Source: an uncultured Gammaproteobacteria bacterium (lineage in GTDB: Bacteria > Patescibacteriota > Microgenomatia > Levybacterales > UBA12049). From it: a stretch of 64,000 nt of DNA. The position numbers and the translations under genes were made by a program. Position 1 is the first letter of the stretch. Each line of letters starts with the position of its first letter. The DNA lies in the NCBI GenBank assembly GCA_964540055.1, contig CAZILC010000006.1, positions 8,228 through 72,227 on the forward strand. The letters are read 5' to 3'. The notes under the pieces were generated by a model. That model was not told the DNA's origin and did not search any database. It worked only from the letters and a program-made list of their open reading frames with translations. This document shows positions 5,332 through 59,247 of this stretch, piece after piece.

Positions 5332-5390
5332 TTTTCAATTTCCAACTTTCAAAGTTGAAACATTGATTCATTGTAAATTGATTGAAAATT

Positions 5391-7082: not shown

Positions 7083-7088
7083 ATATTT

Positions 7089-7421: not shown

Positions 7422-7425
7422 GGCT

Positions 7426-7680: not shown

Positions 7681-7688
7681 GTATTTGC

Positions 7689-8174: not shown

Positions 8175-8221
8175 AGGAGGGATTATAGCAGAGACGAGGC
8201 TAAAAATAAACTTATAGTAGT
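8172..8221 (-). promoter_or_regulatory. Leaderless promoter cassette, copy 1
   Basis: Minus strand reads ACTACTATAAGTTTATTTTT-agcctcgtc-TCTGCTATAAT-ccctcct-GTG. Confidence 0.5.
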
Positions 8222-8255
8222 TTTACATGCTGGTACATGATATAATCTCAACAAT

Positions 8256-8924
8256 ATGGACTGGGCCGGACTAGAAACCTCTCTCATCTTCATTGGCATT
8301 CTATTAATACCTCAAATAGGCATACTATTTCTTATTGGACTAGTTATTAGCATCATTTTAGATATTAAAAAAAGAAGATTTAAATTTTCTAAAATAGCAT
8401 TAATCACAATTACCTCAACAATTGGTTTAATTATTGGCATATTTTGGCTTCTGGATTATCTAGCCCGTCCTCCTTCCACTAAAGATCTCACTGAAAATTA
8501 TTTTAGACATAAAACTGAATTTAATCAGCTCGCACATAGAATTCAAATTGACCAGAAAAAAGGACTAGAAAGAGTAGATAACGATTGGACAAGGCCTGAA
8601 AATGTTACAACTATTGGCTTATCTGGAGATGACATAAAGAATTATCGAAGTGAATTTGGGAAACTCGGAATACCAAGAGGATTTTACGCCTATCAGGATA
8701 GTGTAGATTTTATTGCATATGCTTTTGGATTATCAGTCTCCGGATCGGATATGGGATATTTATATTCTGAAAAACTTCCACAAAATTATTTCAAAAAAAA
8801 CTGTGGTTATTCATTAAAGCCATTCAAAAGACTTGAAGACTATAAAGGCTGCCAAGGTTCAGGGGCATACACCATTTATCAAAAAATTGATAATAACTGG
8901 TATATTTATGACGAGTTGGAGTGA
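8256..8924 (+). CDS. Hypothetical membrane protein (222 aa)
   Basis: About three N-terminal TM segments followed by a soluble domain. TGATATAAT lies 9 nt upstream of the ATG. Confidence 0.5.
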   Translation: MDWAGLETSLIFIGILLIPQIGILFLIGLVISIILDIKKRRFKFSKIALITITSTIGLIIGIFWLLDYLARPPSTKDLTENYFRHKTEFNQLAHRIQIDQKKGLERVDNDWTRPENVTTIGLSGDDIKNYRSEFGKLGIPRGFYAYQDSVDFIAYAFGLSVSGSDMGYLYSEKLPQNYFKKNCGYSLKPFKRLEDYKGCQGSGAYTIYQKIDNNWYIYDELE

Positions 8925-8938
8925 AGATCTTAAAAATT

Positions 8939-9709
8939 TTACTTCACCAATGCAGTACCCCACCCATCATAAACAGCATTGTACTTTTCTGCTAAATCGA
9001 TAAGGATATCTGTTGAATTGTTTATTAAATCCGCTTTTAATGGAGATTTAACTGAAACTTCCAAAAAAAATGTTTTATTTTCATCATCAAACTCTTGATA
9101 TTTTTCTATTGGGAATTTCGCTTTTTTCAATGCTGCAAAATACTTTTTTCTGTCTTCTTTTGATTTAAAAAGAATACCATGATCAATACTATGTTCTTCA
9201 TCTGGATTATCTCCTTCTGCAGCAATATTTCTTAATAATACAGATGTCTGATATCTTTCTTTTTGTTTTGCAGGTGGATATATCGTGTCAAAATATAACT
9301 TCCAATCTTTATCCTCTTTTTGAACAAACTCGTAGGGGAACGTGAACTCCTTAACTAGACCTTCTAATTTTTGCTTTATTTTATTGGTATTATTTGTGTA
9401 TATGAGGTAATATCCTTCCCCATTAGTAATAAATCTTCCAGTATATTTTCCAGTATTTTTATTAGCAATTTTCTCTAATTTATCTTCAAAAGAATATATT
9501 TCTTCAAATTTTTCTCTTGTTGGAAATCCGTTTCTACTGGCGCCGAGATCATGGATAATAATTGCAATAAAGTCATGCAGTTTTTCTGTTTCAGGATTGC
9601 GTGCATTACAATCCACATTAACTGAAGCCGGTTTATGATCAATAAGACTCATCCACCCACACCAATCAGCTTTCATTTTTGATTTCTTGTTAAGTAATTT
9701 TGAAAACAT
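8939..9709 (-). CDS. Hypothetical protein, possibly DUF695-like N-terminus plus RraB-like C-terminus
   Basis: 256 aa. The C-terminal end ...LIDLAEKYNAVYDGWGTALVK resembles the YDGWE/G ending I recall for RraB-family domains. Weak, from memory only. Confidence 0.4.
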   Translation of the reverse strand: MFSKLLNKKSKMKADWCGWMSLIDHKPASVNVDCNARNPETEKLHDFIAIIIHDLGASRNGFPTREKFEEIYSFEDKLEKIANKNTGKYTGRFITNGEGYYLIYTNNTNKIKQKLEGLVKEFTFPYEFVQKEDKDWKLYFDTIYPPAKQKERYQTSVLLRNIAAEGDNPDEEHSIDHGILFKSKEDRKKYFAALKKAKFPIEKYQEFDDENKTFFLEVSVKSPLKADLINNSTDILIDLAEKYNAVYDGWGTALVK

Positions 9710-9723
9710 AATACTAATTAATA

Positions 9724-10698
9724 TTACTTCAAAGAAGCTGCAGGAGTTGCTTTTGAAGTTCTATTGAAAGTTAAAGTCCAGATACCAATAGAATATCCTG
9801 TTGTGAATTTAACTTGTATATCGTCGACTTTATGTTTATCTAAATAATACTTTTTTGCTTGTTTTTCTAATTGAGTACCTAATTTATTTATTTGTTCGTC
9901 ATCAAAAAATGTATTTCTGTCGACCTCAGCTCGGATCACCAAAGATGTATTAGTTTCATCTCCTGACCAAGAGCGAAAAGTACTTAAATCATATCCTGAA
10001 GTTATAACACCCTTATCCGAATTCATAGCTTGTATGAACTGCTCCGTACCATTAAATATACCTAAATTAAACGGATTAATGATACTTGCTGCAAAAAACC
10101 CAATACAAATTAACCCTGTCAAAATGAAAGATATTTTTTTAGGTTTATTACTACTTACTTTTGCTTTAAAATACTTTTGTTTTTCAAGTTTAGTTAGTAA
10201 TGTAATTTGTTTTACTTTTATACTATATACTCCGCTCACTATATCGTGTAGACCTCGATGCTGCGGATGAAATAAAATATAGACTAAGTCTGCAACAACA
10301 AAGGAAGCCACGATTGCACTGATAAAACTTTGTATAAATATATTTGTAGTTAAAGGCATCATCGCAAGAATATGGGAATTATTTATTGCCAAAAGTAGGA
10401 GAAAATTTCTCAATAAAGCTTGGTTTAATGAAAGAAACTCGCCTTTTTTATTTACCAAAGCAATTCGTAGTAATTTAGCTCCCAAAGTCTGACCCTTGAA
10501 ATAAGTCTGAAGAAATGAAAAATACAGTAAAGAGATAACTAACCCCACCCACCAACCGTTGAATCCGAGTGAAAAAAAGTAATCACCGAATGGAAAACTT
10601 AATAACATTCCAATTACTCCAAGAATGCATATATCTATACCGAAGGCAAGCCATTTCCTAAATACGCCGGCTGTCACCAAAGTTATTTTTTTATTCAT
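9724..10698 (-). CDS. RDD-family membrane protein with extra C-terminal domain
   Basis: N-terminal polytopic region ending in HRGLHDIVSGVYSI, typical of RDD domains. A further TM segment and a soluble C-terminal domain follow. Confidence 0.55.
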   Translation of the reverse strand: MNKKITLVTAGVFRKWLAFGIDICILGVIGMLLSFPFGDYFFSLGFNGWWVGLVISLLYFSFLQTYFKGQTLGAKLLRIALVNKKGEFLSLNQALLRNFLLLLAINNSHILAMMPLTTNIFIQSFISAIVASFVVADLVYILFHPQHRGLHDIVSGVYSIKVKQITLLTKLEKQKYFKAKVSSNKPKKISFILTGLICIGFFAASIINPFNLGIFNGTEQFIQAMNSDKGVITSGYDLSTFRSWSGDETNTSLVIRAEVDRNTFFDDEQINKLGTQLEKQAKKYYLDKHKVDDIQVKFTTGYSIGIWTLTFNRTSKATPAASLK

Positions 10699-10745
10699 GA
10701 GGGGAATTATAGCAGAGTTGAAACAAAAAATAAACTTATAGTAGT
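10696..10745 (-). promoter_or_regulatory. Leaderless promoter cassette, copy 2
   Basis: Minus strand reads ACTACTATAAGTTTATTTTT-tgtttcaac-TCTGCTATAAT-tcccctc-ATG. Confidence 0.5.
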
Positions 10746-10826
10746 AAACCCGTCAATTTGATTATAACAAAAAAATATCTCATAGTTTGAAATTTAATTA
10801 AATCTCTGCTATACTTGCGCTTCAAA

Positions 10827-11753
10827 ATGAAAAATAATAAAAATATAGTACAAAAACTTTTGCAAGAAGCGTCCTTTTTTGAAGACCGGGGCAAAACCGC
10901 TGATGCTGCAAAAAAATATGCTGAAATATTAGAGCATTCACCAAATAACATAAATGCTTTATATGGCTTAGGTATGTGTCTTATAAACCAAAAAGAATTT
11001 GCTGACGGAGAAAAACTGTTACAAAAAGGTATGACTCTCTATCCACATACAGATTGGTTTTATGACGCTCTCTATGTCCATGAAAACGTATTTAATAACC
11101 ATAAAGAAGTCTCAAACATTATCAAGTTATGGTTAAAAAATATACCTAATAGTGGTTTAGCACATGCAAGAAATGCTGATTTCTTAATGAAAAACAAATC
11201 AGGAAACTACACAGAAATTCTGCGAGAAGCAAAAGAGGGAATTAGACTAAACCCAGTTAATTCTACTTGTATTGAAACTATGGCATTTGCCCTTTGGAAA
11301 GCTAAAGGAGAAATAAATGAAGCAAAAGAATATTTTATACACGCATTAAAATTGGATCCTCATGATGCTATCCTACATAATAATTTTGGCCATTTCTTAC
11401 TAATGACAGGAGATCCACGAAGAGCCCTTGATGAATTTAGGATGGCTTTGCGACTAAACCCAACTTTGAAAGTTAGTGTCAACAATTTAGGAAAAGCACT
11501 TTATGCAACGAATCGATTTCTTGGATGGAGATATAATATATCTGTTTTCATGACACGTCATCCTGTATTTAATAGACTCAACGGAGTAATCGCATTTTTT
11601 GTTATTAGAGGTTTAATTGAATTAGAACAAAAGGGAATTATTTCAAGTTTTGTATTGTTATCAATCTTAATACCTTACCTTATATATTTGCTTTTTTCTT
11701 ACTTCGGATACAGTACATTTATGTATTTATTTAAAAAAGGATGGATAGTTTAA
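10827..11753 (+). CDS. TPR-repeat protein with C-terminal membrane anchor
   Basis: Start at ATG 10827 (MKNNKN). Repeated A..Y..AL..P TPR-like units (e.g. AKKYAEILEHSPNNINALYGLG, AKEYFIHALKLDPHDAILHNNFG) and two C-terminal hydrophobic segments. Confidence 0.6.
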   Translation: MKNNKNIVQKLLQEASFFEDRGKTADAAKKYAEILEHSPNNINALYGLGMCLINQKEFADGEKLLQKGMTLYPHTDWFYDALYVHENVFNNHKEVSNIIKLWLKNIPNSGLAHARNADFLMKNKSGNYTEILREAKEGIRLNPVNSTCIETMAFALWKAKGEINEAKEYFIHALKLDPHDAILHNNFGHFLLMTGDPRRALDEFRMALRLNPTLKVSVNNLGKALYATNRFLGWRYNISVFMTRHPVFNRLNGVIAFFVIRGLIELEQKGIISSFVLLSILIPYLIYLLFSYFGYSTFMYLFKKGWIV

Positions 11754-12934
11754 ATAAAACAATACAATTTCTAAAAGAAGCACTTGTAGATGAGCCAGAC
11801 AATATTGAATTACGTTTCAGGCTTGCTTCCACGTATTTTCAAAATTCAGAGCTTGAAAAAGCTATTAAACAGTGTCAAATTATTTTAAAAACACATCCTG
11901 AGAATAAAGAAGCACTTATGCTGTTACAGCATTGTCAAGAAAAACATACAGGTACGATGGAAAAAAACACTCTTTCGGAAAATAATGAAAGTTTACCCTC
12001 AATAGATAGTTCAAATAGTACACCAACAACAGATTTGCCAAACAAAAATTCACAAGATCTGCAGAAATATATTGAAAAAGCCAAAATTACTTTCTCTGAT
12101 GTTGGAGGCATGCAAGAATTGAAAGAAGAAGTGAAGTTAGGAATCATTTATCCATTTGAAAAGCCTGAACTCTATGCTAAATATGGTAAAAAAACAGGCG
12201 GCGGATTACTTTTATACGGTCCTCCCGGTTGCGGTAAAACATATATTGCTCGTGCAACAGCTGGTGAAATTGAAGCAATGTTTATGTCAATTTCTATTGA
12301 TGATGTATTAGATATGTATATCGGTCAAAGTGAAAAGCGCTTGCATCAACTATTTCAAACCGCGCGGGAGGTAAAACCAACGGTACTGTTCTTTGACGAA
12401 ATAGATGCATTAGGTATTGATAGAATGAAAGTTAGCTCTGCAGCAAGTATTGTAGTTAATCAGTTTTTAGTAGAAATGGATGGTATTGATAACAATAATG
12501 ATCAAGTAATGATAATAGGTGCTACAAACACACCGTGGCAAATTGACTCAGCATTTCAAAGACCAGGTAGATTTGACAAAATTATCTTTGTGCCTCCGCC
12601 TGATGAAGCTGCGCGTGCCGAAATTTTTAAAATTTATCTAAAAGATAAACCTACAGAGAATATTGATTATGTCGAGCTGGCAAAAAAAACAAATCTCTAT
12701 TCAGGAGCTGATATTGCCAAAATCGTCGATAGTGCAATTGAGCGTGTAATGAAAGAAGTAATTTCAGGAAAACCTGAACGCGACATTACAATGAAAGATT
12801 TAACAGAAGTTATTAATAAAACATCACCCAGTACAAAAGATTGGTTTGCCACTGCTAAAAATTTTGCGAGGTATGCGAACGAGTCAGGCAACTATACTCC
12901 GGTACTTCAGTACATTAAAGAACAAGGGCTGTAA
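11741..12934 (+). CDS. TPR-AAA+ ATPase (classical AAA clade, Cdc48/FtsH/Vps4-like module)
   Basis: N-terminal TPR units. Walker A GPPGCGKT, Walker B VLFFDEID, second region of homology ATNTPWQIDSAFQRPGRFD. Overlaps the upstream TPR gene by 13 nt. Confidence 0.85.
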   Translation: MDSLNKTIQFLKEALVDEPDNIELRFRLASTYFQNSELEKAIKQCQIILKTHPENKEALMLLQHCQEKHTGTMEKNTLSENNESLPSIDSSNSTPTTDLPNKNSQDLQKYIEKAKITFSDVGGMQELKEEVKLGIIYPFEKPELYAKYGKKTGGGLLLYGPPGCGKTYIARATAGEIEAMFMSISIDDVLDMYIGQSEKRLHQLFQTAREVKPTVLFFDEIDALGIDRMKVSSAASIVVNQFLVEMDGIDNNNDQVMIIGATNTPWQIDSAFQRPGRFDKIIFVPPPDEAARAEIFKIYLKDKPTENIDYVELAKKTNLYSGADIAKIVDSAIERVMKEVISGKPERDITMKDLTEVINKTSPSTKDWFATAKNFARYANESGNYTPVLQYIKEQGL

Positions 12935-12950
12935 GTCACATCTTACTCCT

Positions 12951-12970
12951 CATGCTACAATATCCATATG
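12951..12970 (+). promoter_or_regulatory. Extended -10 promoter with leaderless ATG (cyclase gene)
   Basis: CATGCTACAATA, with 6 nt between the TACAAT hexamer and the ATG at 12968. Confidence 0.5.
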
Positions 12971-13582
12971 AAGCTGATCGATCTCTCAGTCCCCATTTCT
13001 GCAAATATGCCAGTCTATCCCGGTGATCCGCATGTGGTTATAAAACCCGCCGGCAAATTGGAAAAAGATGGTTTTGAAGATCATTATCTCAGTATCGGAA
13101 CGCATGCTGGAACGCATATCGATGCGCCGCGGCACATGATCTCTGATGGCAAAGGACTTGATCAATTTCCTCTTGAAAAATTTACCGGCAGGGGAGTGGT
13201 AATCGATATTTTGGACAAACACTTTGATCTAGGAAAAATAAAATCGGCAAATATACAACCCGACGATATCGTATTCTTCCGTACTAGTATGAGTGATTTT
13301 TTTGATAAACCTGAATATTTTGATAACTACCCTGCTATTCCTGAAGATGTTACAAAGTATCTTATAGAGAAAAAAATAAAAATCGTCGGCGTTGATATGT
13401 GCAGTGTCGATCATGAAGAATTTATAGCACACAAACTTTTTCTCCAAAACGAAATTCTGATCATCGAAAATCTTACCAGTCTGAAAGCCTTACAAGATAA
13501 ACAATTCACCATCTACGCCTTCCCATTAAAACTCGATCTCGACGGCTCCCCTGTCCGCGTTGTTGCTGAGATTGAGGAATAA
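12968..13582 (+). CDS. Cyclase-family protein / kynurenine formamidase-like
   Basis: Motif HAGTHIDAPRHM (HxGTHxDxPxH) and the overall size are typical of the putative cyclase / arylformamidase family. Confidence 0.75.
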   Translation: MKLIDLSVPISANMPVYPGDPHVVIKPAGKLEKDGFEDHYLSIGTHAGTHIDAPRHMISDGKGLDQFPLEKFTGRGVVIDILDKHFDLGKIKSANIQPDDIVFFRTSMSDFFDKPEYFDNYPAIPEDVTKYLIEKKIKIVGVDMCSVDHEEFIAHKLFLQNEILIIENLTSLKALQDKQFTIYAFPLKLDLDGSPVRVVAEIEE

Positions 13583-13584
13583 TC

Positions 13585-13604
13585 CATGCTACAATACAAG
13601 AGTG
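13585..13604 (+). promoter_or_regulatory. Extended -10 promoter with leaderless GTG (GT-C paralog 2)
   Basis: The same 12-mer CATGCTACAATA, with 6 nt between the hexamer and the in-frame GTG at 13602. Confidence 0.45.
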
Positions 13605-15284
13605 GTAAAAAGAATTCTTGATCAAAGTAAAATTTTGCTGCTGCTAATTGTCTTCCTCGGCGCATTTTTCAGGTTTTATGATGTCAATTGGGATCAAAAT
13701 CAGCACCTCCATCCTGATGAGCGCTTCCTCACCATGGTCGCAACAGACATGAAAACTCCGCCCAATTTTGCCACCTATCTTGACCCATCAGTATCTTCAA
13801 TGAATCCAGCCAACATTGGGCATTCCTTTTATGTCTACGGCGTTTTCCCGGTGGTAGCGGACAAACTACTGGCAATCGGCACAAAAGCAGATAACTATAA
13901 CGACATCACCCTTTTGGGAAGAATGCTTTCTGGATTTGTGGATCTACTCATGGTCGCACTCGTTTTTAAAACAGCCCAGCTTTTTGAAAAGAAAGACAAA
14001 CTTCATCCATCGGTGAAATATTGGGCCGCATTTTTTTATGCTATCACAGTTCTTCCGATCCAACTCTCTCATTTTTTTACCACAGATACATTCTTAAGCG
14101 CTTTTACTTTCCTGTCTTTTTTCTCCGCCCTTTCATTTTCCTATTCCAAACGAATCTACTGGCTACTTTTGAGCGGTCTATTTCTGGGACTGGCAATTGC
14201 TTCCAAAGTCACAGCAATTTTTGTTTTTCCGCTGCTTCTGTACTTTTTTATAAATGCTTACAGTGAAAAACGAAAAATTTTAAAGAAAAATCTTCTTCGT
14301 TTACTGGGGGATCTACTGCTTTTTGGAATAACAGCATATTTATCCGTACGCATTGCCGATCCATATTTATTCCAAACCGGAAATGTACTAGATCCGACCC
14401 CAAGCCAACTTTTTTTAAAAAATCTCAAAGATCTCCAAGCTTGGAGTGATCCCAAAGCGTGGTATCCACCAGGCGTCCAATGGATTCACAAAACACCAAT
14501 TCTTTTTGCTCTGAAAAATCTGACTCTCTATGGAATTGGTATAGGCTATGCCATTTGTGTCTTACTTGGGGGATTTTTTCTTATTAAAAAAATAAGACAT
14601 GCTCAGTTGTATGTAATCGGCGGGTGGGTCATACTATTTTTTCTCTATCAATCACTGCAATCAGTCCAGACCATGCGCTACTTTATTATGCTCTATCCAT
14701 TCCTGGCTCTTTTTGCCGGCATTGGTTTTGCTTATTTGTTCAAACAATATTCCAAACTCTTCTCAGTTCCGTTACTTATTTTTGTCATTATCTGGCCGCT
14801 GCTTTTCTTCTCAATTTACACCAAACCAATTACCCGATACAGCGCATCTGATTGGATTTATAAAAATCTCCCCACCAATAGTGTTATTCTGACAGAAAGT
14901 TGGGATGACGGATTGCCATTGCCAATCTATGATATGTCGGCGAGAAATTACAAACCAGAACAACTGCCGGTCTTTGATCCCGACACACCCGATAAATGGA
15001 TGAAAATGGATGGACTATTGAAACAAGGCGACTACCTAATATTATCCTCAAACCGCGGATGGGGGAGTATCCCAACAGTCCCGGAGCGCTTCCCAATGAT
15101 GAAAGCATTCTATGCTAGTCTTTTTGCCGGAAAAACAGATTATCAAGAAATAAAACAATTTACCTCCTATCCCTCCCTCACATACCTTGGCATCCCACTC
15201 ACCATCCCCGATGACAACGCCGAAGAAGCCTTCACAGTCTACGACCACCCAAAAGTCATTATTTTTAAAAACAAAAATAAATAG
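13602..15284 (+). CDS. GT-C fold membrane glycosyltransferase (family 39/PMT_2-like), paralog 2, GTG start
   Basis: FYDVNWDQNQHLHPDERF loop and C-terminal VYDHPKVIIFKNK match paralog 1. Start set at the in-frame GTG 13602, 6 nt after TGCTACAAT, rather than the overlapping track start at 13560. Confidence 0.65.
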   Translation: MVKRILDQSKILLLLIVFLGAFFRFYDVNWDQNQHLHPDERFLTMVATDMKTPPNFATYLDPSVSSMNPANIGHSFYVYGVFPVVADKLLAIGTKADNYNDITLLGRMLSGFVDLLMVALVFKTAQLFEKKDKLHPSVKYWAAFFYAITVLPIQLSHFFTTDTFLSAFTFLSFFSALSFSYSKRIYWLLLSGLFLGLAIASKVTAIFVFPLLLYFFINAYSEKRKILKKNLLRLLGDLLLFGITAYLSVRIADPYLFQTGNVLDPTPSQLFLKNLKDLQAWSDPKAWYPPGVQWIHKTPILFALKNLTLYGIGIGYAICVLLGGFFLIKKIRHAQLYVIGGWVILFFLYQSLQSVQTMRYFIMLYPFLALFAGIGFAYLFKQYSKLFSVPLLIFVIIWPLLFFSIYTKPITRYSASDWIYKNLPTNSVILTESWDDGLPLPIYDMSARNYKPEQLPVFDPDTPDKWMKMDGLLKQGDYLILSSNRGWGSIPTVPERFPMMKAFYASLFAGKTDYQEIKQFTSYPSLTYLGIPLTIPDDNAEEAFTVYDHPKVIIFKNKNK

Positions 15285-15304
15285 CATTACAATATTTCGG
15301 CAAT

Positions 15305-15445
15305 AATGCGCGCAACGTCAAAAAAATTTATGAAATGAAGCGTTAAAAAAACCGAACGGTTTTTAGCATAATGGAATAAATTTTTAGCGAGCACATCCTT
15401 GCCGAGAGTTTTGGTACTTTGGCGGCCCAAAGTACAAGAAATAAT
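15305..15445. repeat. Structured intergenic repeat, copy A
   Basis: Aligns with 21027-21202. The last 48 nt (15397-15444) match 21154-21201 at 47/48 positions. Contains the TGCGCGCA palindrome, an A/U-stem hairpin, a TTTTTAGC direct repeat, and the perfect hairpin GTACTTTGG-cggc-CCAAAGTAC (15414-15435). Confidence 0.75.
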
Positions 15446-15447
15446 AT

Positions 15448-16944
15448 ATGAAAAAATACTTCCTAAACAACTGGCAACTCATAGGTATCTTATTGGTATA
15501 CCTATGTGTCGCTCTCTACCAACTCGATTCAATCCCCGGTGAAATCTGGGGCGACGCAATCTCCCATTACAATCTTGCAGAAAAAGTGCTTCATGGAGGC
15601 TTCTTTTATGATTACGAATTCGGTGGCGACGGCCCGATATTCACCTATCTAGCAGTTGCAGTCTCGTACGTCACGCATCTTTCATTTTATAGTTTGAAAC
15701 TTACGTCTGTAATAATCGGATTCTTTTTCGTCCTGTCCATGTATTTTCTCGCAAAAGAATTTTTTAAAGAAAAAACAGTCGCGCTTTTATCAGCATTTAT
15801 CAGTGGCATCTCCTTCTGGACCCTTGTTTTTGCTAAACAACCCCATGCGCGTATCCTCGTCCCGCTTTTTATCTGCCTGACGCTCATTTATACTCTCAAA
15901 AAGAAAAATATTGTCGCCGGAATTTTCCTTGGACTGGGGATGTACACTCAAGCAAGTTTTTGGGGAATGATACTTACTTATTGGCGCAACTGGAAAACAC
16001 TTCTCATCGGAGTAATCCTCACCATACCTCTTATCTTTGCATTTATTTACAATCCAGTCAGCTTCTTCTCAAAAGATTCCTATTTCGGCGAAAAACTTGC
16101 CGTTCATACACCATTTACTCAGGATCTCTACGCATTTTTCTATAACGTTCAGGCAAATCTATTATCATTTAACGTCAAAGGCGACAGTATTTTCCGCATG
16201 AATATTCCTCACCATCCGCATCTGGATGTCATAAGTGGCTTGCTTTTTGTTTTTGGATTTCTTTTCATTCTTGTCCAAAGTATTAGAAAAAAACAAAAAG
16301 AATTTATTCTCTATTTTATTCTGCCCTTTTTCTTTATTCAGGTTCCCTCATTTCTGGATATTCATAATTACTTCTCCCAGCCAAACATCTCACGCATGAT
16401 AGGTGTTATTCCGTTTGTTTATATGAGTGTTGCCTATGGTATTTTTAAATTAAACGAGTTGCTAACGAAAAAAATTCACAACCAAACTGCTAGGGAATAT
16501 GTGCCATATTTCATGTATATCGGCCTGCCTATCTTTATTTTTATTCTCAATTTTTATAACTACTTTTATATTTTTCCTCTGACTCTCCCGAACAGCAACA
16601 CGCCGTTTGGTAAATTAATTGCTGAGGCAATCGATGATACAACCCCACAAACCCATGCGATAATCATTGGTGCCGGGTGGGGACAATATGTCCAACCGGA
16701 AGTTGCGGGCATTCCAATGGTGCAAACAACAGTGCACCAGGAAGATTTTTTTCAAACAGTTGATCAAACAACCCAATCGCTTTGTCAAACCACACAGCAC
16801 GGAACACCTATTCTTATAGCTAGTAATCCCGCATTTGCAAGCCAGTTACAATCCGCAAATATGTGTATCAATAAAACAAAATCATATATGCTCAGAAGTA
16901 ACGGTTGGGATGTGGCATATATTATTGAGGGTGTGCAGAAGTAA
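15448..16944 (+). CDS. GT-C fold membrane glycosyltransferase (ArnT/GT39-like)
   Basis: 498-aa polytopic protein with about 10 or more hydrophobic segments. Has an early loop GEIWGDAISHYNLAEKVLHG and a soluble C-terminal domain. Confidence 0.55.
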   Translation: MKKYFLNNWQLIGILLVYLCVALYQLDSIPGEIWGDAISHYNLAEKVLHGGFFYDYEFGGDGPIFTYLAVAVSYVTHLSFYSLKLTSVIIGFFFVLSMYFLAKEFFKEKTVALLSAFISGISFWTLVFAKQPHARILVPLFICLTLIYTLKKKNIVAGIFLGLGMYTQASFWGMILTYWRNWKTLLIGVILTIPLIFAFIYNPVSFFSKDSYFGEKLAVHTPFTQDLYAFFYNVQANLLSFNVKGDSIFRMNIPHHPHLDVISGLLFVFGFLFILVQSIRKKQKEFILYFILPFFFIQVPSFLDIHNYFSQPNISRMIGVIPFVYMSVAYGIFKLNELLTKKIHNQTAREYVPYFMYIGLPIFIFILNFYNYFYIFPLTLPNSNTPFGKLIAEAIDDTTPQTHAIIIGAGWGQYVQPEVAGIPMVQTTVHQEDFFQTVDQTTQSLCQTTQHGTPILIASNPAFASQLQSANMCINKTKSYMLRSNGWDVAYIIEGVQK

Positions 16945-16946
16945 TC

Positions 16947-18086
16947 TTACCTCTTTATAAACTCTTCTGCATGGTGAACAATTTTTTCAGTATCCAACAG
17001 CTCTCGAAGTTTATTTTCATTTTTCATGATATCCGATTTTTGCTTTTCAAAACGGATAATTGCTTCTGCCAATTCTTCAGGTGATTCGGTTTTAAAAGTT
17101 AAACCAAATCCTGATTCTTTTACCAAATACCGAAGCCCAGGAATATCGCTCACAATTGCTGGTGTCCCGCAAAGCATTGCTTCTGCTTGAACTAAATTAA
17201 AACAATCTGACCGTGACGGAACAATAATTGCATCAATTCCCTGATAAAAACTTTTCAATCCCGAATCATCCAATAACCCAAGAAATGTCAGATGATCTTT
17301 GACTTGCTCAAATAATTTCTTGTTCTTTCCAAAAAAATCTTCATAAGACATTTCTTGCCCAGCAATAACAAAGTGAGCGCTTGGAATTTTTTCTAAGATT
17401 TTAGGAATTGCACGAAACAAAATATCAAAACCTTTCTCTTCAACAAACCGCCCGGCAAAACCAAAAATAAGCTTATGTTGTTTTTGTAATATTTCAATTT
17501 TGTCTAATGGTTTAGCAACATTTTTAGATTGCAATACAACAGGTAACAAAATGGGAGTAAATTTTTTCAAATGCGGCTTGAGAATTCGTGAATGCCTGGC
17601 ATAATCCGCTGTATATGTGCTGACTTTATCAGCAAGGGACAATGAAATAAAACAAGAAAGATCAAATACTTTTTCAATTACTTTGTTGATTAAACTCGGA
17701 GGAAGAATTAAATCACCCTGATGAAAAATCAATAATTTTTTACCGAAAAGTTTGGCAAATAAGGAAAAGAAAACAATATTTGCACTGGGCGAATTGATCA
17801 TTACGCAATCATTTTTTGAAACATTCTGTAAAAAATCCCATAAAATTGCTAACGAATACTTAGATCTGCTAATCGATAACAAATAATCACTTCTCAAAAC
17901 TCTCACTTTACCCAAGTTCTCCGACTTCCCCAACTTTTTATCAAAACTGACAGTCAAAACGGTTATTGTAAACCTATCCTGCAAGGCCTGAGTTAACGAA
18001 AAAACCGATTTTGCTATGCCTGTCCAGTGAGGATAAAAAAAATCGGTAACAAGCAGAACGCGCATTTGCTTTTCCTGTGTTGTCAT
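16947..18086 (-). CDS. Glycosyltransferase family 4 (GT-B, glycosyl transferases group 1)
   Basis: C-terminal domain FGFAGRFVEEKGFDIL...VPSRSDCFNLVQAEAMLCGTPAIVSD carries the E-x7-E-type GT4 signature region. Confidence 0.85.
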   Translation of the reverse strand: MTTQEKQMRVLLVTDFFYPHWTGIAKSVFSLTQALQDRFTITVLTVSFDKKLGKSENLGKVRVLRSDYLLSISRSKYSLAILWDFLQNVSKNDCVMINSPSANIVFFSLFAKLFGKKLLIFHQGDLILPPSLINKVIEKVFDLSCFISLSLADKVSTYTADYARHSRILKPHLKKFTPILLPVVLQSKNVAKPLDKIEILQKQHKLIFGFAGRFVEEKGFDILFRAIPKILEKIPSAHFVIAGQEMSYEDFFGKNKKLFEQVKDHLTFLGLLDDSGLKSFYQGIDAIIVPSRSDCFNLVQAEAMLCGTPAIVSDIPGLRYLVKESGFGLTFKTESPEELAEAIIRFEKQKSDIMKNENKLRELLDTEKIVHHAEEFIKR

Positions 18087-18123
18087 GGTTAAGTAATATT
18101 ATATAATAAAAAGACTAAATTCT

Positions 18124-18669
18124 ATGAAAATCGGTTTTGATCTGGACAAAATTTTTATTAATACGCCGCCTTTGGTCCCCATTTCGATCATCAACAAATT
18201 TTACAAACAGCGAGATAATGGCATATTACTGTATCGAATTCCAACGCGACCCGAACAGCTCTTTCGAAAAGCAACCCACGTGCCGCTTCTTCGCCAACCT
18301 ATTAAAAATAATCTTAGCTTACTCCGAAATCTTGCCAAAAATAAAAATAACCAACTGTTTTTAATATCAAGCCGTTTTAAATTTCTCGAACCTGAAACCG
18401 CAATGCTTGTCAAAAAATATGGCCTTGATCAAATATTTGATAAACTTTATTTTAATTATGAAAATAAACAGCCGCATAAATTTAAAAACGAAATTCTCCA
18501 GCATTTAAAACTGGATATTTTTGTCGATGATGATTTGTCCCTTGTCCGTTTCGTTGCCAAAGATAATCCGAAAACCCAATTTTTCTGGCTTAATGAACAA
18601 AAAATTGAAAAAAAACTCACTGACAATATCACAGCAATTTCAAAATTAGGAGAAATTATTAAAAAATAA
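18124..18669 (+). CDS. HAD-superfamily-like hydrolase
   Basis: N-terminal FDLDKI (DxD motif I) and C-terminal FVDDD (motif IV-like). Small size. Confidence 0.45.
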   Translation: MKIGFDLDKIFINTPPLVPISIINKFYKQRDNGILLYRIPTRPEQLFRKATHVPLLRQPIKNNLSLLRNLAKNKNNQLFLISSRFKFLEPETAMLVKKYGLDQIFDKLYFNYENKQPHKFKNEILQHLKLDIFVDDDLSLVRFVAKDNPKTQFFWLNEQKIEKKLTDNITAISKLGEIIKK

Positions 18670-20936
18670 TGAATCAATCAGATATTATTGCCGTCCTTCA
18701 ATGGTGGCTTGTCATTTTCGTTTTGGGAGTCGGTTTTACACCTGTTACCTTTAGATTATTTTCGCCATTTTTTGATAAAGGATATCTTTACTCGCGTCTG
18801 GTCGGACTTGTTCTTGTCGGCTTCTTTGTTTTTGTTCTCGGGACATTTCATATCGCAACCTTCTCAAATCCGACAATTATTATTACGGCACTTATTATTG
18901 CTGCAGTTGCTTTTTTCTTTTTCAAGCCACTTTGGAAACTTCTTATCATTTTTAAACAAATGTGGTACATCTTTATCCTTGAAGAATTACTCTTTTTAGG
19001 AATTCTTTTTATGTGGGCGTATATTCATTCCTTTTCACCCGATATCCACGGACTTGAAAAATATATGGATTTCGGATTTGTTAATTCACTTCTGCGATCC
19101 GATTATTTCCCACCTAAAGATATGTGGTTCACACCTTATACGATAAATTATTATTACTTCGGCCATTTACTCACAGCGCTTCTGACCAAACTTTCCGGAC
19201 TTCCTTCGTATATATCGTTTAATTTGATGCTTTCAACGATCGTCGCATTTTGTTTTACAACGACATTCTCACTTGGCGCAAATCTGTATTATTTCCTGGT
19301 CAAAGCGGAAAAATTTAGTAAATTAAAACTTGCTCTTGCCGGTCTTTTGACAGCTGCTTTGACAACCTTTGCCGGCAATCTGCATTTGCTGTATGGATTT
19401 TTTAAGCCGTACAACACCGACAATCCTGTGCCAATGTGGGATTTACCATTTAAACCTTTCAATTTCCCGAATAGCTACTGGTATCCCAATGCGACACGGT
19501 TTATTTATCATACCATCCATGAATTTCCTATCTATTCCTGGACCGTTGCGGATCTTCACGGGCATGTTTTGGATATTCCTTTTGTCCTTCTTACTGTTTC
19601 ACTTCTTTTCTCATTTTATATAATGCACAGTGAAAATCCGGATGCTGAAAAAACAGTAGGACAAACATTTATCGTCCACCCATTGCATTTACTCTTCATT
19701 GGGGTGTTACTTGCGGTTATGTATATGACCAATGCCTGGGACGGGGCAATCTACTGGGCGCTTGCTGCGATGACTCTTGCAGTCATTCACGGACAAAAAA
19801 AGTATCAATACAAAGCAGCATTTGATAAAAATGAATCAGCATCGGTTGTTAAAAACGGCAAAAAGCAAACTCGATTTGGCAAACTCCAATCTTGGCAAAT
19901 AGCATGGGTCCGTGATTTTTCTCTATCAATACTTGTCGTAACAGCTGCATTTCTTCTTTTTTCAACCCCATATAATATCCATTTCAAACCGTTTGCATCA
20001 GGAATCGGAGTCATCTGTGCACCTGACGTCTTGACCAAAATAGGCAAAATCGGGCCGTTTCTTTTTGAAGCGGATCATTGCCAGCGTTCTTACTGGTGGG
20101 AACTCGCAACACTTTACGGGTTTTTCTATTTCTTTGTCATTGCTTTTGGCGTTTTTCTGGTTCGCGCCAAACGTCACTCACCAACAGATGTTTTTGTAGC
20201 CCTACTTATCATTCTTTCAACCTTGCTAATATTTATTCCGGAATTCTTTTATTTGAAAGATATCTATCCGACTTATTACCGTGCAAACACCATGTTTAAG
20301 CTCGTCTTTCAGGCTTTTATGATGCTTTCAATTACGAGTGCCTACGTGATCTATCGTATGACAATTCTGATTCCTTATCAACGATTAACGAAAAAAATCT
20401 TTCTCTTTATCTTTTTCCTAGTATCAGCAATGCTTGTTTGTGTGGTTTTAACGTATCCATATCTTGCCGTAAATGCCTATTATAATAATTTAAAAACATA
20501 TCAAGGACTTGATGGCATCACCTATTTAAAAAACCAGTATCCTGATGACTACTTAGCAATTCAATGGCTCAATAAAAATATCAAAGGCCAACCAGTGATT
20601 CTTGAAGCGCAAGGAGATTCCTACACGGATTATGCCAGAATTTCAGCAAATACAGGCCTCCCAACAGTTCTCGGCTGGACCGTTCACGAATGGCTTTGGC
20701 GCGGAACCTATGATATCCCTGCTCCAAGAATAGAAGAGGTAAAAACGCTTTATGAAACAACAAATATGCAAACTGCCAAAGACCTCATTCAGAAATACAA
20801 CGTTCAGTATGTCTATATCGGATCCCTCGAGTTCCAAAAATATCCAAACCTCAATGAATCCAAATTTGCTCAACTAGGCCAACTTGTCTACAATCACGGT
20901 ACAGTAAAGATATATAAAATAAATCAATACCACTAG
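18669..20936 (+). CDS. YYY-motif membrane protein (DUF2298 / Chlor_Arch_YYY family, GT-C-like)
   Basis: 755-aa polytopic protein containing TPYTINYYYFGHLLTA, the motif that names the family. Confidence 0.7.
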   Translation: MNQSDIIAVLQWWLVIFVLGVGFTPVTFRLFSPFFDKGYLYSRLVGLVLVGFFVFVLGTFHIATFSNPTIIITALIIAAVAFFFFKPLWKLLIIFKQMWYIFILEELLFLGILFMWAYIHSFSPDIHGLEKYMDFGFVNSLLRSDYFPPKDMWFTPYTINYYYFGHLLTALLTKLSGLPSYISFNLMLSTIVAFCFTTTFSLGANLYYFLVKAEKFSKLKLALAGLLTAALTTFAGNLHLLYGFFKPYNTDNPVPMWDLPFKPFNFPNSYWYPNATRFIYHTIHEFPIYSWTVADLHGHVLDIPFVLLTVSLLFSFYIMHSENPDAEKTVGQTFIVHPLHLLFIGVLLAVMYMTNAWDGAIYWALAAMTLAVIHGQKKYQYKAAFDKNESASVVKNGKKQTRFGKLQSWQIAWVRDFSLSILVVTAAFLLFSTPYNIHFKPFASGIGVICAPDVLTKIGKIGPFLFEADHCQRSYWWELATLYGFFYFFVIAFGVFLVRAKRHSPTDVFVALLIILSTLLIFIPEFFYLKDIYPTYYRANTMFKLVFQAFMMLSITSAYVIYRMTILIPYQRLTKKIFLFIFFLVSAMLVCVVLTYPYLAVNAYYNNLKTYQGLDGITYLKNQYPDDYLAIQWLNKNIKGQPVILEAQGDSYTDYARISANTGLPTVLGWTVHEWLWRGTYDIPAPRIEEVKTLYETTNMQTAKDLIQKYNVQYVYIGSLEFQKYPNLNESKFAQLGQLVYNHGTVKIYKINQYH

Positions 20937-20957
20937 CTTTTAACTTAAATCGTAAAA

Positions 20958-21012
20958 CTCAAATCTCAAAGTTACATCTCAAATTTCAAATCCAATAAAC
21001 TCAAATATCAAT
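20958..21012. repeat. Degenerate direct repeats of about 20-21 bp built on CTCAAAT
   Basis: CTCAAAT-type heptamers at 20958, 20965, 20978, 20985 and 20999, arranged as pairs 7 nt apart that recur every 20-21 nt. Confidence 0.4.
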
Positions 21013-21026
21013 CTTGAATCGGCATT

Positions 21027-21202
21027 TACTGCGCGCAGCGTTAAAAAAATTTTCGTAGTGGAGCGTATAATAAAAACGAACGTTTTTTAGCGGAACGGAG
21101 AAAATTTTTAGCGAGCGCCACCATGAAATGACAAGTACTCTTGGAGTGCACAGCCTTGTCGAGAGTTTTGGTACTTTGGCGGCCCAAAGTACAAGAAATA
21201 AA
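21027..21202. repeat. Structured intergenic repeat, copy B (with roughly 35-nt insertion)
   Basis: Has the same modules as copy A (CTGCGCGCAG; AAAAACGAACGTTTTT; TTTTTAGC x2; hairpin at 21171-21192), plus an extra segment at about 21116-21153. Confidence 0.75.
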
Positions 21203-21209
21203 ACTTACT

Positions 21210-22430
21210 CTATTCTTTAACTGAAGCAGTAGATTGAGGTTTGGGCGTAGGCGTCACAATGCCATACTGCCCCACAACACAATTCCCCGCAGCAATCTGA
21301 CACGCAACATATCTCTGAATCTCAGAATAATCAGTCGCGCCAGCACGAGGAGCCAATACCCAAGCCCCTCCGTAATCGACAGTTGGCGGATTAATTAACA
21401 AACCATAACTCTCAGTCTCCGAATCCCCAGTATCGAGAACATTACTGACAATTTTTGCACCCTTCATATCTTGGGCAAGCCTTATGAAATCAGCATATTG
21501 GCCTTGCGTGATATCCGTCTCCAGACTTCCCGAAAGCGTATTCACCAGATCAATAACCTTAACGGGATTGAGAAGTGTTCCTACAGAAAAGAGCTTGGCC
21601 TTAAAAGCACTGATAACTAAGGCTTGACGTCTGGATCTGGCAAAATCCGATCCTTCAGGACCCAGTGCATGACGAGACCGTACATATTCCAAAGCTGTCT
21701 CCCCATCCATATGTGTTGAGCCTTTATCATAATGAATATGCTTGTATCTGCAAGGGAAAGAGTCAAGTTCTGTTGCACTGCCTGATGCAATTGCCGCCGA
21801 ATCACTGGCAATTTGCGCATCAGTTAATCCACACGTCGCATCTTCCTGACCTGTAATCGGATACGCATAATCATCAAATGTCCTCTCAACATTTATATCC
21901 AGCCCGCCAAGAATATTCACAGCTTTAACAAAACCCCCAAAATCAATTTTCACGCCATAATCAATATGTTGACCGAGAATTTTACCGACTTCTGTTTTCA
22001 TTACCGACAAACCGCTGCCGGGATTTTTTTCTGACGCAAATGTATAGGTTGCATTTATTTTTGCTCCAATATCAGGTACCCACAAATCCCGCGGAAGCGA
22101 GACAAGCGTTACTTTTTTATGAATCGGATCTATATGCATAAAAATAATAGTATCCGTCAAATCCGGTCCTTCATGCGTTCCACCGCCGATACCCAAAAGG
22201 AGAATATTAACTGGTTTGAGAGGTGGAGCATTAATATGCGCAATTTGCGTAACACTTGTATCCCAGAATGCAGAAAGAATCGCGCTGCTTTTCCAAATTA
22301 GAACACCGCAAATAAGAATAATTGCTACCCAAAAAGCCACTATCACACGCTTGCGGATGGGTTTTTTTCTTCTGTGTGGCACAAGCCTCGATGATTGCAA
22401 CCGGGATTCCGGTCTGTATCCATTATCCAT
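21210..22430 (-). CDS. LytR-CpsA-Psr (LCP) family protein
   Basis: N-terminal TM segment, then NILLLGIGGGTHEGPDLTDTIIFMHIDPIHKKVTLVSLPRDLWV, the LCP core signature. Confidence 0.85.
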   Translation of the reverse strand: MDNGYRPESRLQSSRLVPHRRKKPIRKRVIVAFWVAIILICGVLIWKSSAILSAFWDTSVTQIAHINAPPLKPVNILLLGIGGGTHEGPDLTDTIIFMHIDPIHKKVTLVSLPRDLWVPDIGAKINATYTFASEKNPGSGLSVMKTEVGKILGQHIDYGVKIDFGGFVKAVNILGGLDINVERTFDDYAYPITGQEDATCGLTDAQIASDSAAIASGSATELDSFPCRYKHIHYDKGSTHMDGETALEYVRSRHALGPEGSDFARSRRQALVISAFKAKLFSVGTLLNPVKVIDLVNTLSGSLETDITQGQYADFIRLAQDMKGAKIVSNVLDTGDSETESYGLLINPPTVDYGGAWVLAPRAGATDYSEIQRYVACQIAAGNCVVGQYGIVTPTPKPQSTASVKE

Positions 22431-22462
22431 GAGCTAATAGTTAATAGTAGAACAAGTAATCT

Positions 22463-46022: not shown

Positions 46023-46086
46023 TTTTCTAATTTTTTAAACTAAACTCTTACAGATTTCCTTGACAAGTTTTATATAATATAACTAT

Positions 46087-59124: not shown

Positions 59125-59146
59125 ATAATTTCTATAGTTGTGTTGG

Positions 59147-59227: not shown

Positions 59228-59247
59228 ACAGGACCCCCACAATGCTA

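What the first reader, a model, noticed from the sequence alone, without database searches (positions are those of the whole stretch)
15305..15445. Structured intergenic repeat found after two different GT-C glycosyltransferase genes
Copy A (15305-15445) follows the stop of the 13602-15284 gene and precedes the 15448 gene. Copy B (21027-21202) follows the 18669-20936 gene. They align module by module:
- A GC palindrome: TGCGCGCA in A, CTGCGCGCAG in B. I noticed the hexamer GCGCGC only here and in the 59.17-kb element.
- An A/U-stem hairpin with a GAAC loop. The copies differ by one whole base pair (AAAAAACCGAACGGTTTTT in A, AAAAACGAACGTTTTT in B), so the indel is compensated on both arms.
- Two TTTTTAGC boxes 13 nt apart.
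- A 48-nt block that is 47/48 identical and contains the perfect hairpin GTACTTTGG-cggc-CCAAAGTAC.

In copy A the hairpin ends 12 nt before the start codon of the next GT-C gene. Neither strand has a U-tract after the hairpin, so this is not a classical terminator. Possible roles are a 3'-UTR or processing element, a cis-regulatory leader for glycosyltransferase genes, or a MITE-like repeat.
Basis: seen in the sequence. Interest (0 to 1): 0.58.

Follow-up and report, generated by a model that had tools for sequence, protein, structure and literature searches.

The report
Structured palindromic intergenic repeat in Saccharibacteria
The two look-alike spacers are copies of a small non-coding repeat found in some ultra-small (CPR) bacteria: a variable rod-shaped hairpin followed by a 34-base hairpin module that hardly varies, inserted sporadically between genes of many kinds rather than serving as a switch for glycosyltransferase genes.

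Summary
Copy A (15297-15444) and copy B (21019-21201) are homologous. Their last 41 nt are identical, and 0 matches are expected by chance.

Both fold on the + strand into a closing stem (P1), an A/U-rich rod, and a perfect 9-bp hairpin extended by UUUU paired with purines. Seven of 50 pairs show compensatory changes among only three sequences.

The link to GT-C genes is coincidental:
- In relatives, the two genes that flank copy A overlap (TAATG) and carry no element.
- A third copy, from the same sample, lies next to a VanW gene.
- Other copies lie next to dprA, topA, comM, hemK and other genes, in either orientation.
- One copy has decayed.

The family is rare. It occurs in Saccharimonadales and in one Buchananbacteria genome. 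It shares an almost invariant 34-nt module, CCGAGAGUUUUG-GUACUUUGG-CGGY-CCAAAGUAC, combined with rods of 70-210 nt or with other hairpin modules.

It has no Rfam family, conserved ORF, U-tract terminator, conserved promoter, terminal inverted repeats, clear target duplication or nearby transposase.

My best reading is a new REP/BIME/ERIC-like mosaic palindromic repeat. Its invariant hairpin would be recognised by an unknown protein, and any effect on neighbouring genes would be incidental. A trans-acting small RNA remains possible.

The parts
15297..15444 (+). Copy A, whole element: rod, invariant 3' module and purine tail.
   Evidence: Aligns with copy B. The covariance model R1 scores it 178.7 bits. 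It occupies the 163-nt spacer between two genes that overlap in all relatives examined.
15297..15405 (+). Copy A rod. It is an imperfect palindrome closed by P1 (UCGGCAA 15297-15303 with UUGCCGA 15399-15405). It has an A/U helix and an apical hairpin (15347-15364, loop GAAC).
   Evidence: The minimum-energy fold is -40.5 kcal/mol with z = -3.5. Rod helices carry 7 pairs with compensatory changes. P1 is kept in six sequences, with double changes at 4 of its 6 pairs.
15402..15435 (+). Copy A, near-invariant 34-nt module CCGAGAGTTTTG-GTACTTTGG-CGGC-CCAAAGTAC (hairpin 15414-15435).
   Evidence: Identical in A, L119, L121 and L123 apart from the loop Y; B and L120 differ at one flank base (T for C), L124 at one. 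The nine stem pairs never vary.
15436..15444 (+). Purine-rich tail AAGAAATAA. It pairs with UUUU at 15409-15412 and so extends the hairpin. It may be partly host flank.
   Evidence: Tails are purine-rich in all nine copies, and the U-A or U-G pairs are kept in 92% of cells. AAGAAAT is also present at the element-free site of relative L134.
21019..21201 (+). Copy B, whole element. P1 is 21019-21024 with 21157-21162, the lineage-specific 33-nt insertion is 21115-21147, and the hairpin is 21171-21192.
   Evidence: 157.1 bits. It lies between the convergent DUF2298 gene (ends at 20936) and the LytR_cpsA_psr gene (stop at 21210).
20954..21011 (+). About eight degenerate AAATCTC heptamers just upstream of copy B. 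This is neighbouring sequence and is not shared with copy A.
   Evidence: Tandem Repeats Finder: period 7, 8.3 copies, 62% matches.

Best explanation
The two spacers are copies of a previously undescribed family of small, non-coding, mosaic palindromic repeats in CPR bacteria (Saccharimonadales, plus one Buchananbacteria genome).

The basic unit is a REP-sized module of about 34 nt. It has a single-stranded flank (C)CGAGAGUUUUG followed by a perfect hairpin, GUACUUUGG-CGGY-CCAAAGUAC. In most copies this module is preceded by an imperfect-palindrome rod of 70-210 nt closed by a short stem (P1). In some copies it is followed by a further hairpin module.

Copies arise sporadically in intergenic DNA close to gene ends, in either orientation relative to the neighbouring genes, and some later decay.

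The folded strand is the + strand. Both hairpin arms stay fixed without covariation while the rod co-varies freely. The simplest reading (inferred, not shown) is that a protein recognises the flank and hairpin sequence-specifically. An enzyme acting on single-stranded nucleic acid, as RAYT and IS200-type HUH transposases act on REP hairpins, would fit. On this reading the rod only has to stay base-paired.

Any effect on neighbouring genes would be a by-product. Copy A now separates two formerly translationally coupled GT-C genes by 163 nt of compact structure. Copy B supplies the only stable hairpins between two convergent genes.

Shown: homology, structure with covariation, strand asymmetry, sporadic and mosaic distribution, absence from known families.
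Inferred: mobility, its mechanism, the protein partner, and any effect on expression.
For: - The repeat is real. The final 41 nt are identical in both copies, with 0 of 100 shuffles matching.
- The structure is conserved. 98.7% of cells are paired and 7 of 50 pairs show double changes, against 0-2 in slid controls.
- P1 is 100% paired in six sequences from three groups, with double changes at 4 of 6 pairs.
- The strands differ. There are about 12 G-U cells against 1 C-A. The + strand folds 8-13 kcal/mol better in B, L120 and L014.
- Copy A is an insertion. In relatives P0002, L127, L128-L133 the two flanking genes overlap (in L134 they lie 21 nt apart), and neither the hairpin nor the model is found in those 20-kb loci.
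- The L121 copy fills about 330 extra nt after dprA. Five relatives with 68-82% identical DprA lack it.
- A third copy lies at the ends of contigs L144 and L145, from the same sample as the window's own contig L126. It is orthologous to the L120 copy. L142 holds a decayed copy and L143 holds none.
- The build is mosaic. Rods are about 70, 100 and 210 nt long. L116 has the 3' module without a rod. L119, L121 and L123 carry an extra GGAUCCUGAA hairpin.
- Neighbouring genes and orientations are unrelated from copy to copy.
- No sequence is conserved upstream of the sharp left edge TCGRCA. No site matches this genome's own TGnTAnAAT promoter type.
- There is no Rfam family and no match in phage, plasmid or viral collections.
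Against: - Copy number looks low. There are 2 copies in 64 kb, 2 exact hairpins in a 438-kb Buchananbacteria contig, and 6 distinct loci in the JGI metagenome scan.
- No transposase or HUH gene was found among all 60 window ORFs of at least 100 aa scanned with Pfam.
- There are no terminal inverted repeats that include the 3' module, and no convincing target duplication.
- The two Buchananbacteria copies lie in opposite orientations where the local GC skew has the same sign. That does not fit the strand bias expected of IS200/IS605-like elements, although n = 2.
- Compensatory changes between paralogues, and retention at the VanW site in genomes whose VanW is only 81% identical, show lasting selection on structure. 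That would equally suit a functional RNA.
- No transcript data exist.
Confidence: 0.45

Rival explanations
1. A family of independently transcribed, trans-acting small RNAs of about 150-300 nt. The rod is a scaffold, and the invariant 3' hairpin with its flank is the binding site for a conserved RNA-binding protein or serves to protect the 3' end.
For: Base pairing co-varies and G-U pairs favour one strand, even in copies that are antisense to both neighbouring genes (L120, L121, L124). The copy at the VanW locus is retained in genomes whose VanW is only 81% identical. The paralogues A, B and C differ by 15-25% yet keep the fold. Weak -10-like hexamers lie 3-8 nt upstream of P1 in A, B and L120.
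Against: Nothing is conserved upstream of the left edge, even between the orthologous L120 and L144 copies. There the -10-like TAAACT reads GAAACT. None of the copies has this genome's TGnTAnAAT promoter type. There is no intrinsic terminator, although relatives do use canonical ones. The element is absent from close relatives at two loci and decayed at a third. The interior is too variable (70-210 nt, or missing) for one shared target-pairing function.
Confidence: 0.2
2. A structural element retained by the host that acts in cis on whichever transcript contains it. It could stabilise the 3' end, insulate against read-through between convergent genes, or uncouple or compact the spacer between operon genes, as described for some REP, ERIC and BOX copies.
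For: In four of nine copies the hairpin lies 12-17 nt from an ORF boundary (A, B, L120, L124). The genome is extremely compact and most convergent gene pairs have 0-14 nt between them, so three insertions of 150-180 nt stand out. Folding would bring the stop at 15284 and the start at 15448 to within about 25 unpaired nt of each other.
Against: Orientation relative to the host transcript is not consistent, while the fold is asymmetric between strands. Relatives function without the element. No transcript evidence exists.
Confidence: 0.15
3. A double-stranded DNA site. The perfect 9-4-9 palindrome would be an operator for a dimeric DNA-binding protein, overlapping an outward promoter (TGgTACTTT is an extended -10-like box).
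For: Both arms are invariant with no covariation, as expected for half-sites read by a protein. TGGTACTTT fits the TGnTAnnnT pattern. An unrelated Pedobacter repeat uses the same palindrome, and there TACTTTG fits the Bacteroidetes -7 box TAnnTTTG as I recall it.
Against: Six of nine copies point at the 3' end of a convergent gene, not at a gene to be expressed. The U-tract and purine-tail extension, with its U-G pairs, argues that the whole hairpin is transcribed or single-stranded. The conserved flank is asymmetric.
Confidence: 0.07
4. A riboregulator or leader specific to GT-C glycosyltransferase genes.
For: Copies A and B both follow GT-C-type genes, and A precedes another. The L014 copy lies 84 nt upstream of a gene whose N-terminus looks like a GT4-type glycosyltransferase by eye; no family scan was run on it.
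Against: Orthologous glycosyltransferase clusters in relatives lack the element. Most other copies lie next to unrelated genes. Copy B has no downstream gene on its own strand.
Confidence: 0.03

Closest known systems
REP / BIME elements of enterobacteria and pseudomonads (REPINs, mobilised by RAYT tyrosine transposases)
   Same: The unit is a 20-40-nt palindrome with a conserved single-stranded tag beside the hairpin. It is combined in a mosaic fashion with other motifs. It sits in intergenic DNA near gene ends, codes for nothing, lacks terminal inverted repeats and a target duplication, and is presumably recognised as a hairpin on one strand (background: PMC3733652, PMC3184786).
   Different: The tag is GAGAGTTTTG, not GTAG or CGTC. 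The stem is A/T-rich rather than G+C-rich. Copy number appears to be a few per genome rather than hundreds. No RAYT or IS200-like gene was seen. The hosts are CPR bacteria.
ERIC (IRU) elements of enterobacteria and RPE elements of Rickettsia
   Same: These are imperfect palindromes of about 100-150 nt that fold into rods. They are present or absent at orthologous intergenic sites in related species, occur in both orientations, lie inside operons, and have no known means of mobilisation (own knowledge; reviews PMC2229807, PMC3184786).
   Different: Those elements lack an appended invariant hairpin module shared across phylum-level lineages. RPEs also insert into ORFs, which was not seen here.
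BOX elements of Streptococcus pneumoniae
   Same: They have a modular build (boxA, boxB, boxC) with variable numbers of modules, stable RNA folds, intergenic locations and reported effects on neighbouring genes (own knowledge; PMC2229807).
   Different: There is no sequence similarity, and BOX elements number more than 100 per genome.
MITEs such as Correia/NEMIS
   Same: They are small, non-coding and dispersed, and they can carry promoters or processing sites.
   Different: MITEs have true terminal inverted repeats and a fixed target duplication. Here the inverted 7-mers TCGGCAA and TTGCCGA are not terminal, because the 3' module lies outside them. They also co-vary between copies.
Intrinsic (Rho-independent) terminators
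   Same: A stable hairpin lies just after stop codons in several copies.
   Different: No U-tract follows on either strand. The sequence is fixed across lineages, unlike generic terminators. Relatives use ordinary terminators elsewhere.

Membership tests
MITE | Terminal inverted repeats at both ends of the element | tested here: not met
   The only inverted ends are P1 (15297-15303 with 15399-15405). The conserved 3' module (15404-15435) lies outside them. P1 also changes by compensatory substitution between copies.
MITE | Target-site duplication of fixed length flanking each copy | tested here: inconclusive
   Filled sites were compared with empty sites in relatives. Only short A-rich words such as AAATA recur, which is not distinguishable from chance. 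The relatives are too distant to fix the ends.
MITE | A cognate autonomous IS with the same ends | not tested
   No transposase was found among the window ORFs scanned. Whole genomes could not be searched.
REP / REPIN (RAYT-associated) | A short palindrome with a conserved GTAG (or CGTC) tag at one end | tested here: not met
   The flank is (C)CGAGAGTTTTG and the stem starts with GTAC. No GTAG or CGTC tag is present.
REP / REPIN (RAYT-associated) | High copy number per genome and an associated RAYT gene | not testable with these tools
   Only 64 kb of the genome and fragments of relatives could be read. There were 2 copies in 64 kb and 2 in a 438-kb contig.
Riboswitch or cis-regulatory leader | Conserved position upstream of homologous or functionally related genes | tested here: not met
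   Only 3 of 9 copies precede a gene on the same strand, and the neighbouring genes are unrelated. Orthologous GT genes lack it.
Riboswitch or cis-regulatory leader | A conserved ligand-binding core with a variable expression platform | tested here: not met
   The pattern is the reverse. The interior varies from 70 to 210 nt, or is absent, and the 3' hairpin is invariant.
Intrinsic terminator | A G+C-rich hairpin followed by a U-tract | tested here: not met
   The terminator scan reports nothing at either copy. The tails are AAGAAAUAA on the + strand and CAAAACUCUC on the - strand.
Any Rfam family (4227 models) | Score at or above the family's gathering threshold | tested here: not met
   There were no hits in the window or in 19 related loci. 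The best sub-threshold hit was lactis-plasmid RNA at 19.4 bits against a threshold of 70.
Small protein gene | A conserved ORF with a start codon | tested here: not met
   On the + strand the frame ..EFWYFGGPKY.. has stops immediately upstream and no start codon in the window copies. On the - strand the frame YFGPPKYQNSR.. has no start codon in L014 and L119, and the sequence after the motif is unrelated between copies.
Trans-acting sRNA gene | Its own promoter and a defined 3' end | tested here: inconclusive
   No upstream motif is conserved and there is no TGnTAnAAT box. Weak -10-like hexamers are present. There are no transcript data.

The most novel reading that the evidence does not exclude
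The 34-nt flank-plus-hairpin module is the recognition site of an as yet unidentified protein conserved across CPR lineages. One version of this reading makes the protein a new kind of single-strand-specific (HUH-like) mobilising enzyme, which would give CPR bacteria their own class of REP-like mobile element. The other makes it an RNA-binding protein that uses a family of rod-shaped RNAs as scaffolds. A Pedobacter repeat with the same stem would then point to a recognition logic shared beyond the CPR.
Probability: 0.25. Interest if true: 0.7.

Novelty: new variant of a known kind. Interest (0 to 1): 0.5.

Why it matters
CPR (Patescibacteria) genomes are tiny and tightly packed, and I know of almost no mobile or regulatory non-coding elements described for them. 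Neither my literature searches nor Rfam turned up this element.

A structured repeat that keeps its fold through compensatory mutations would be a handle on one of two open questions. Its 34-nt module is almost unchanged between genomes of 33% and 56% G+C, and it can land between translationally coupled genes. That points either to how DNA moves within and between these episymbionts, or to an unknown RNA-protein partnership.

On the practical side, the element breaks short-read assemblies. It could also mislead annotation of glycosylation loci if read as a regulator. If it proves to be only a low-copy selfish repeat, the result is a modest addition to the catalogue of bacterial interspersed repeats.

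Tried and rejected
- **Known RNA families.** Rfam at gathering thresholds found nothing in the window or in 19 loci. Permissive scans of copy A, the L119 spacer and the 59.1-kb stretch also found nothing. ARAGORN found no tRNA or tmRNA.
- **A hidden small protein.** The palindrome forces Y-F-G-x-P-K-Y in one frame on each strand. The + frame has stops and no start codon. The - frame looked tempting: three A/B/L120 differences are all synonymous and the 33-nt insertion in B is in frame. However, it lacks a start codon in L014 and L119 and diverges completely after the motif. Two of the three 'synonymous' changes are explained by compensatory partners in the rod.
- **Terminator and sigma-70 promoter scans.** Nothing specific was found.
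- **attL/attR-type direct repeats around an island.** Rejected, because the 5.7 kb between A and B is ancestral synteny in relatives.
- **IS200/IS605-like strand bias.** The sign of the GC skew is inconsistent across loci.
- **Relation to the 59.17-kb GCGCGC element.** The two share a few words, but model R1 does not hit it and its fold is unremarkable.
- **Homology of the L134 DUF2298-LytR spacer to copy B.** Not convincing.
- **A recurrent neighbouring gene for the Pedobacter repeat.** None was found: 193 flanking proteins fell into 156 clusters.
CPR genomes in that collection were therefore not fully sampled.
- **Other collections.** The viral scan (for the 22-nt hairpin pattern) and the phage and plasmid searches (with copy A) had no match.
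- **Literature.** Searches for the sequence and for CPR repeats or ncRNAs found nothing relevant.

Full report
**1. What is there**

Copy A lies in the 163-nt spacer between a PMT_2-type GT-C gene (13560-15284) and a 498-aa membrane protein gene (15448-16944). That protein has only a sub-threshold PMT_2 match. Copy B lies between the DUF2298 gene (18669-20936) and the convergent LytR_cpsA_psr gene (21210-22430).

The two copies align from TCGGCA (15297 in A, 21019 in B) to AAGAAATAA (15444 in A, 21201 in B). B has a 33-nt insertion at 21115-21147. The last 41 nt are identical and occur nowhere else in the window at up to 3 mismatches. No shuffle gave a match. The hexamer GCGCGC, however, is no more frequent than chance: 3 were found and 4.8 expected.

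**2. Structure**

Copy A folds on the + strand into four parts (-40.5 kcal/mol, z = -3.5):
- a closing stem P1 (15297-15303 with 15399-15405);
- an A/U-rich rod with an apical GAAC hairpin;
- three unpaired bases (GAG);
- the perfect 9-bp hairpin (15414-15435), extended by UUUU pairing with the purine tail.

A metagenome contig, L120, carries an element 86% identical to A. RNAalifold on A, B and L120 predicts 50 pairs, and 7 of them have changes on both sides. On that structure 98.7% of cells are paired. Structures slid by 1-3 columns give 35-52% paired and 0-2 double changes. One P1 pair runs G-C in A, G-U in B and A-U in L120. The two TTTTTAGC boxes are simply the 3' strands of two A/U helices.

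G-U pairs outnumber C-A mismatches about 12 to 1. The + strand folds 8-13 kcal/mol better than the - strand in B, L120 and L014. It is roughly equal in A, L121 and L124. The + strand is therefore the folded one, as RNA or as single-stranded DNA.

**3. The family**

It still found two copies in a Candidatus Buchananbacteria contig (L014, L116).

A metagenome scan with the CGGN loop found 8 loci, 6 of them distinct. Names on protein homologues place both the window organism and L121 in Saccharimonadales.

A, B, L119-L121 and L123-L125 share (C/T)CG(A/G)GAGTTTTG-GTACTTTGG-CGG(C/T)-CCAAAGTAC, followed by 4-5 purines; the Buchananbacteria copies L014 and L116 keep the hairpin but have a diverged flank, GAGCTTTGCG / GACCTTTGCG. 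What lies upstream differs between loci:
- a rod of about 100 nt in A, B and L120;
- a rod of about 70 nt in L124;
- a rod of about 210 nt in L121;
- a different rod with G-U-rich closing pairs in L014;
- no rod in L116.

L119, L121 and L123 add a further hairpin, GGAUCCUGAA-N5-UUCAGGAUGA, downstream.

I built mini-constructs from the P1 strands indicated by the minimum-energy folds. On these, P1 is 100% paired in six sequences, with double changes at 4 of 6 pairs. The nine hairpin pairs never vary. The UUUU-purine extension is kept through U-A and U-G pairs. One caveat applies: the P1 5' strands were located by folding, so some selection bias is built in.

Model R1 recovers all members. It finds nothing else in the window or in about 200 kb of related Saccharimonadales loci.

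**4. Not tied to glycosyltransferases, and sporadic**

Relatives whose 498-aa protein is 66-77% identical keep the same gene order. There, however, the PMT_2 gene and the 498-aa gene overlap (…TAATG…) and there is no spacer. Copy A is therefore an insertion exactly at a former stop/start overlap.

The L121 copy occupies about 330 extra nt after dprA. Five relatives with 68-82% identical DprA lack that stretch.

A third copy, C, lies at the broken ends of contigs L144 and L145. These come from the same or a sister sample as the window's own short contig L126. Copy C is divergent from a VanW gene and orthologous to the L120 copy. L142 keeps only the first 45 nt or so, and L143 has nothing. L126 itself starts inside copy A, so the repeat breaks assemblies.

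The neighbouring genes are unrelated: dprA, topA, a sigma-like gene, comM, hemK, DUF3048, VanW, an Rpf-like gene and glycosyltransferases. Both the upstream and the downstream neighbours are about evenly split between orientations.

**5. What it is not**

- It matches no Rfam family, tRNA or tmRNA.
- It is not a gene. Both the + and - strand frames forced by the palindrome lack start codons or conservation.
- It is not an intrinsic terminator.
- It shows no sign of a promoter of its own. Nothing is conserved upstream of the sharp left edge, even between orthologous copies. This genome's promoters are clear TGnTAnAAT boxes placed just before start codons, giving leaderless mRNAs.
- It is not a classical MITE. 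The inverted 7-mers are not terminal, and no target duplication is evident.
- No transposase was found among the 60 window ORFs scanned. The only mobility-related gene is a T4SS coupling protein at 60000-62384.
- Nothing similar was found in viral (hairpin pattern), phage or plasmid (copy A) collections.

**6. Interpretation**

The contrast within the element is the key clue. The rod needs only to pair and co-varies freely. The flank and hairpin are fixed base for base between genomes of 33-56% G+C.

That pattern is expected if a protein reads the flank and hairpin sequence-specifically while the rest is a structured passenger. Add the sporadic gain, the decay, the mosaic build, the lack of gene-context or orientation rules, and the absence of a promoter or terminator. 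Taken together, the closest known kind is the REP/BIME, ERIC, BOX and RPE group of interspersed palindromic repeats (background: PMC3733652, PMC3184786, PMC2229807).

Membership in any of those families is not established, and for REP and MITE defining features were tested and not met.

The mobilising mechanism is inference only. The low copy number, the long-term structural selection and the retention at the VanW locus keep a functional small RNA alive as the main rival.

**7. Verdict**

The glycosyltransferase interpretation is not supported, and the 'repeat' interpretation is the nearest. This is a new, rare, structured repeat family of CPR bacteria. It is of moderate interest, and a genome-wide census and transcript mapping would decide the open question.

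Noticed in passing
window-wide; for example 8160-8180, 10690-10710, 12950-12970, 22430-22470, 46060-46090: Most genes have a TGnTAnAAT-type box ending 5-11 nt before the start codon. This suggests that leaderless mRNAs are the rule in this genome. Shine-Dalgarno-like GGAG appears mainly before internal operon genes.
   Followed up: partly
window 8170-8221 and 10694-10745: A 52-nt direct repeat, 81% identical. On the - strand it carries a CTGCTATAAT box and the start codon of two leaderless genes (7689-8174 and 9724-10698). It looks like a duplicated promoter and start region.
   Followed up: partly
window 20954-21011: About eight degenerate tandem copies of the heptamer AAATCTC lie between the DUF2298 stop codon and copy B.
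   Followed up: partly
window 59136-59290: A G+C-rich stretch with inverted repeats, including the third GCGCGC. It is followed by a perfect palindrome, TATACGTATA-N7-TATACGTATA, that overlaps the start of the 59285 gene. The next gene (60000-62384, - strand) is a T4SS coupling protein (TrwB/TraG-like). It has no Rfam hit, an unremarkable fold (z = -1.1) and no hit from model R1. It could be an operator or an oriT-like region.
   Followed up: partly
L144 1-34 (-) and L145 1-38 (-); L142 45-125 (-): A third copy of the element sits at the contig ends in the same or a sister sample as the window's own contig. It lies about 145 nt from a VanW gene and is divergent from it. L142 holds a decayed copy at the orthologous site. 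Short-read contigs (L126, L144, L145) break inside the repeat.
   Followed up: yes
L001-L117 (Pedobacter genomes), for example L002 6740-6900: An interspersed repeat of about 140 nt, with more than 100 copies in the fetched loci. It contains the same 9-bp stem GTACTTTGG/CCAAAGTAC, with loop CGCT and flank GCGCTTTGG. It is not in Rfam and has no recurrent neighbouring gene. The upstream gene is on the same strand in 65 of 94 copies that have an upstream ORF. Its relation to the CPR family is unknown.
   Followed up: partly
L014 7270-7316 and L116 3945-3990 (Buchananbacteria contig PEZY01000012): A 41-nt repeat, AAAAAATGCAAACATTAAAAAATATTGTGCCAATTTTATAT, lies next to both hairpin copies. It is in the same orientation as one hairpin and inverted relative to the other. 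It may be a promoter-like module of the mosaic.
   Followed up: no
L119 12500-12530, L121 (reverse strand) and L123 about 110-145: A conserved hairpin, GGAUCCUGAA-N5-UUCAGGAUGA(C), lies downstream of the invariant module. A second similar unit, GGAUYCCC…GGGGAUGA, occurs in L119 and L123. Both carry GGA motifs at the stem bases.
   Followed up: no
window 5382-20936: A glycosylation island with four GT-C-type genes (5382-7082, 13560-15284, 15448-16944, 18669-20936) and a GT4 gene (16947-18086). Gene content between the GT-C genes varies among relatives, which carry an extra methyltransferase, an extra PMT_2 gene or extra small ORFs.
   Followed up: partly
window 49391-55708 (-): A complete tryptophan biosynthesis operon (trpE, G, D, C, F, B, A) in a Saccharimonadales genome. 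As far as I know, members of this group usually have very limited biosynthetic capacity.
   Followed up: no
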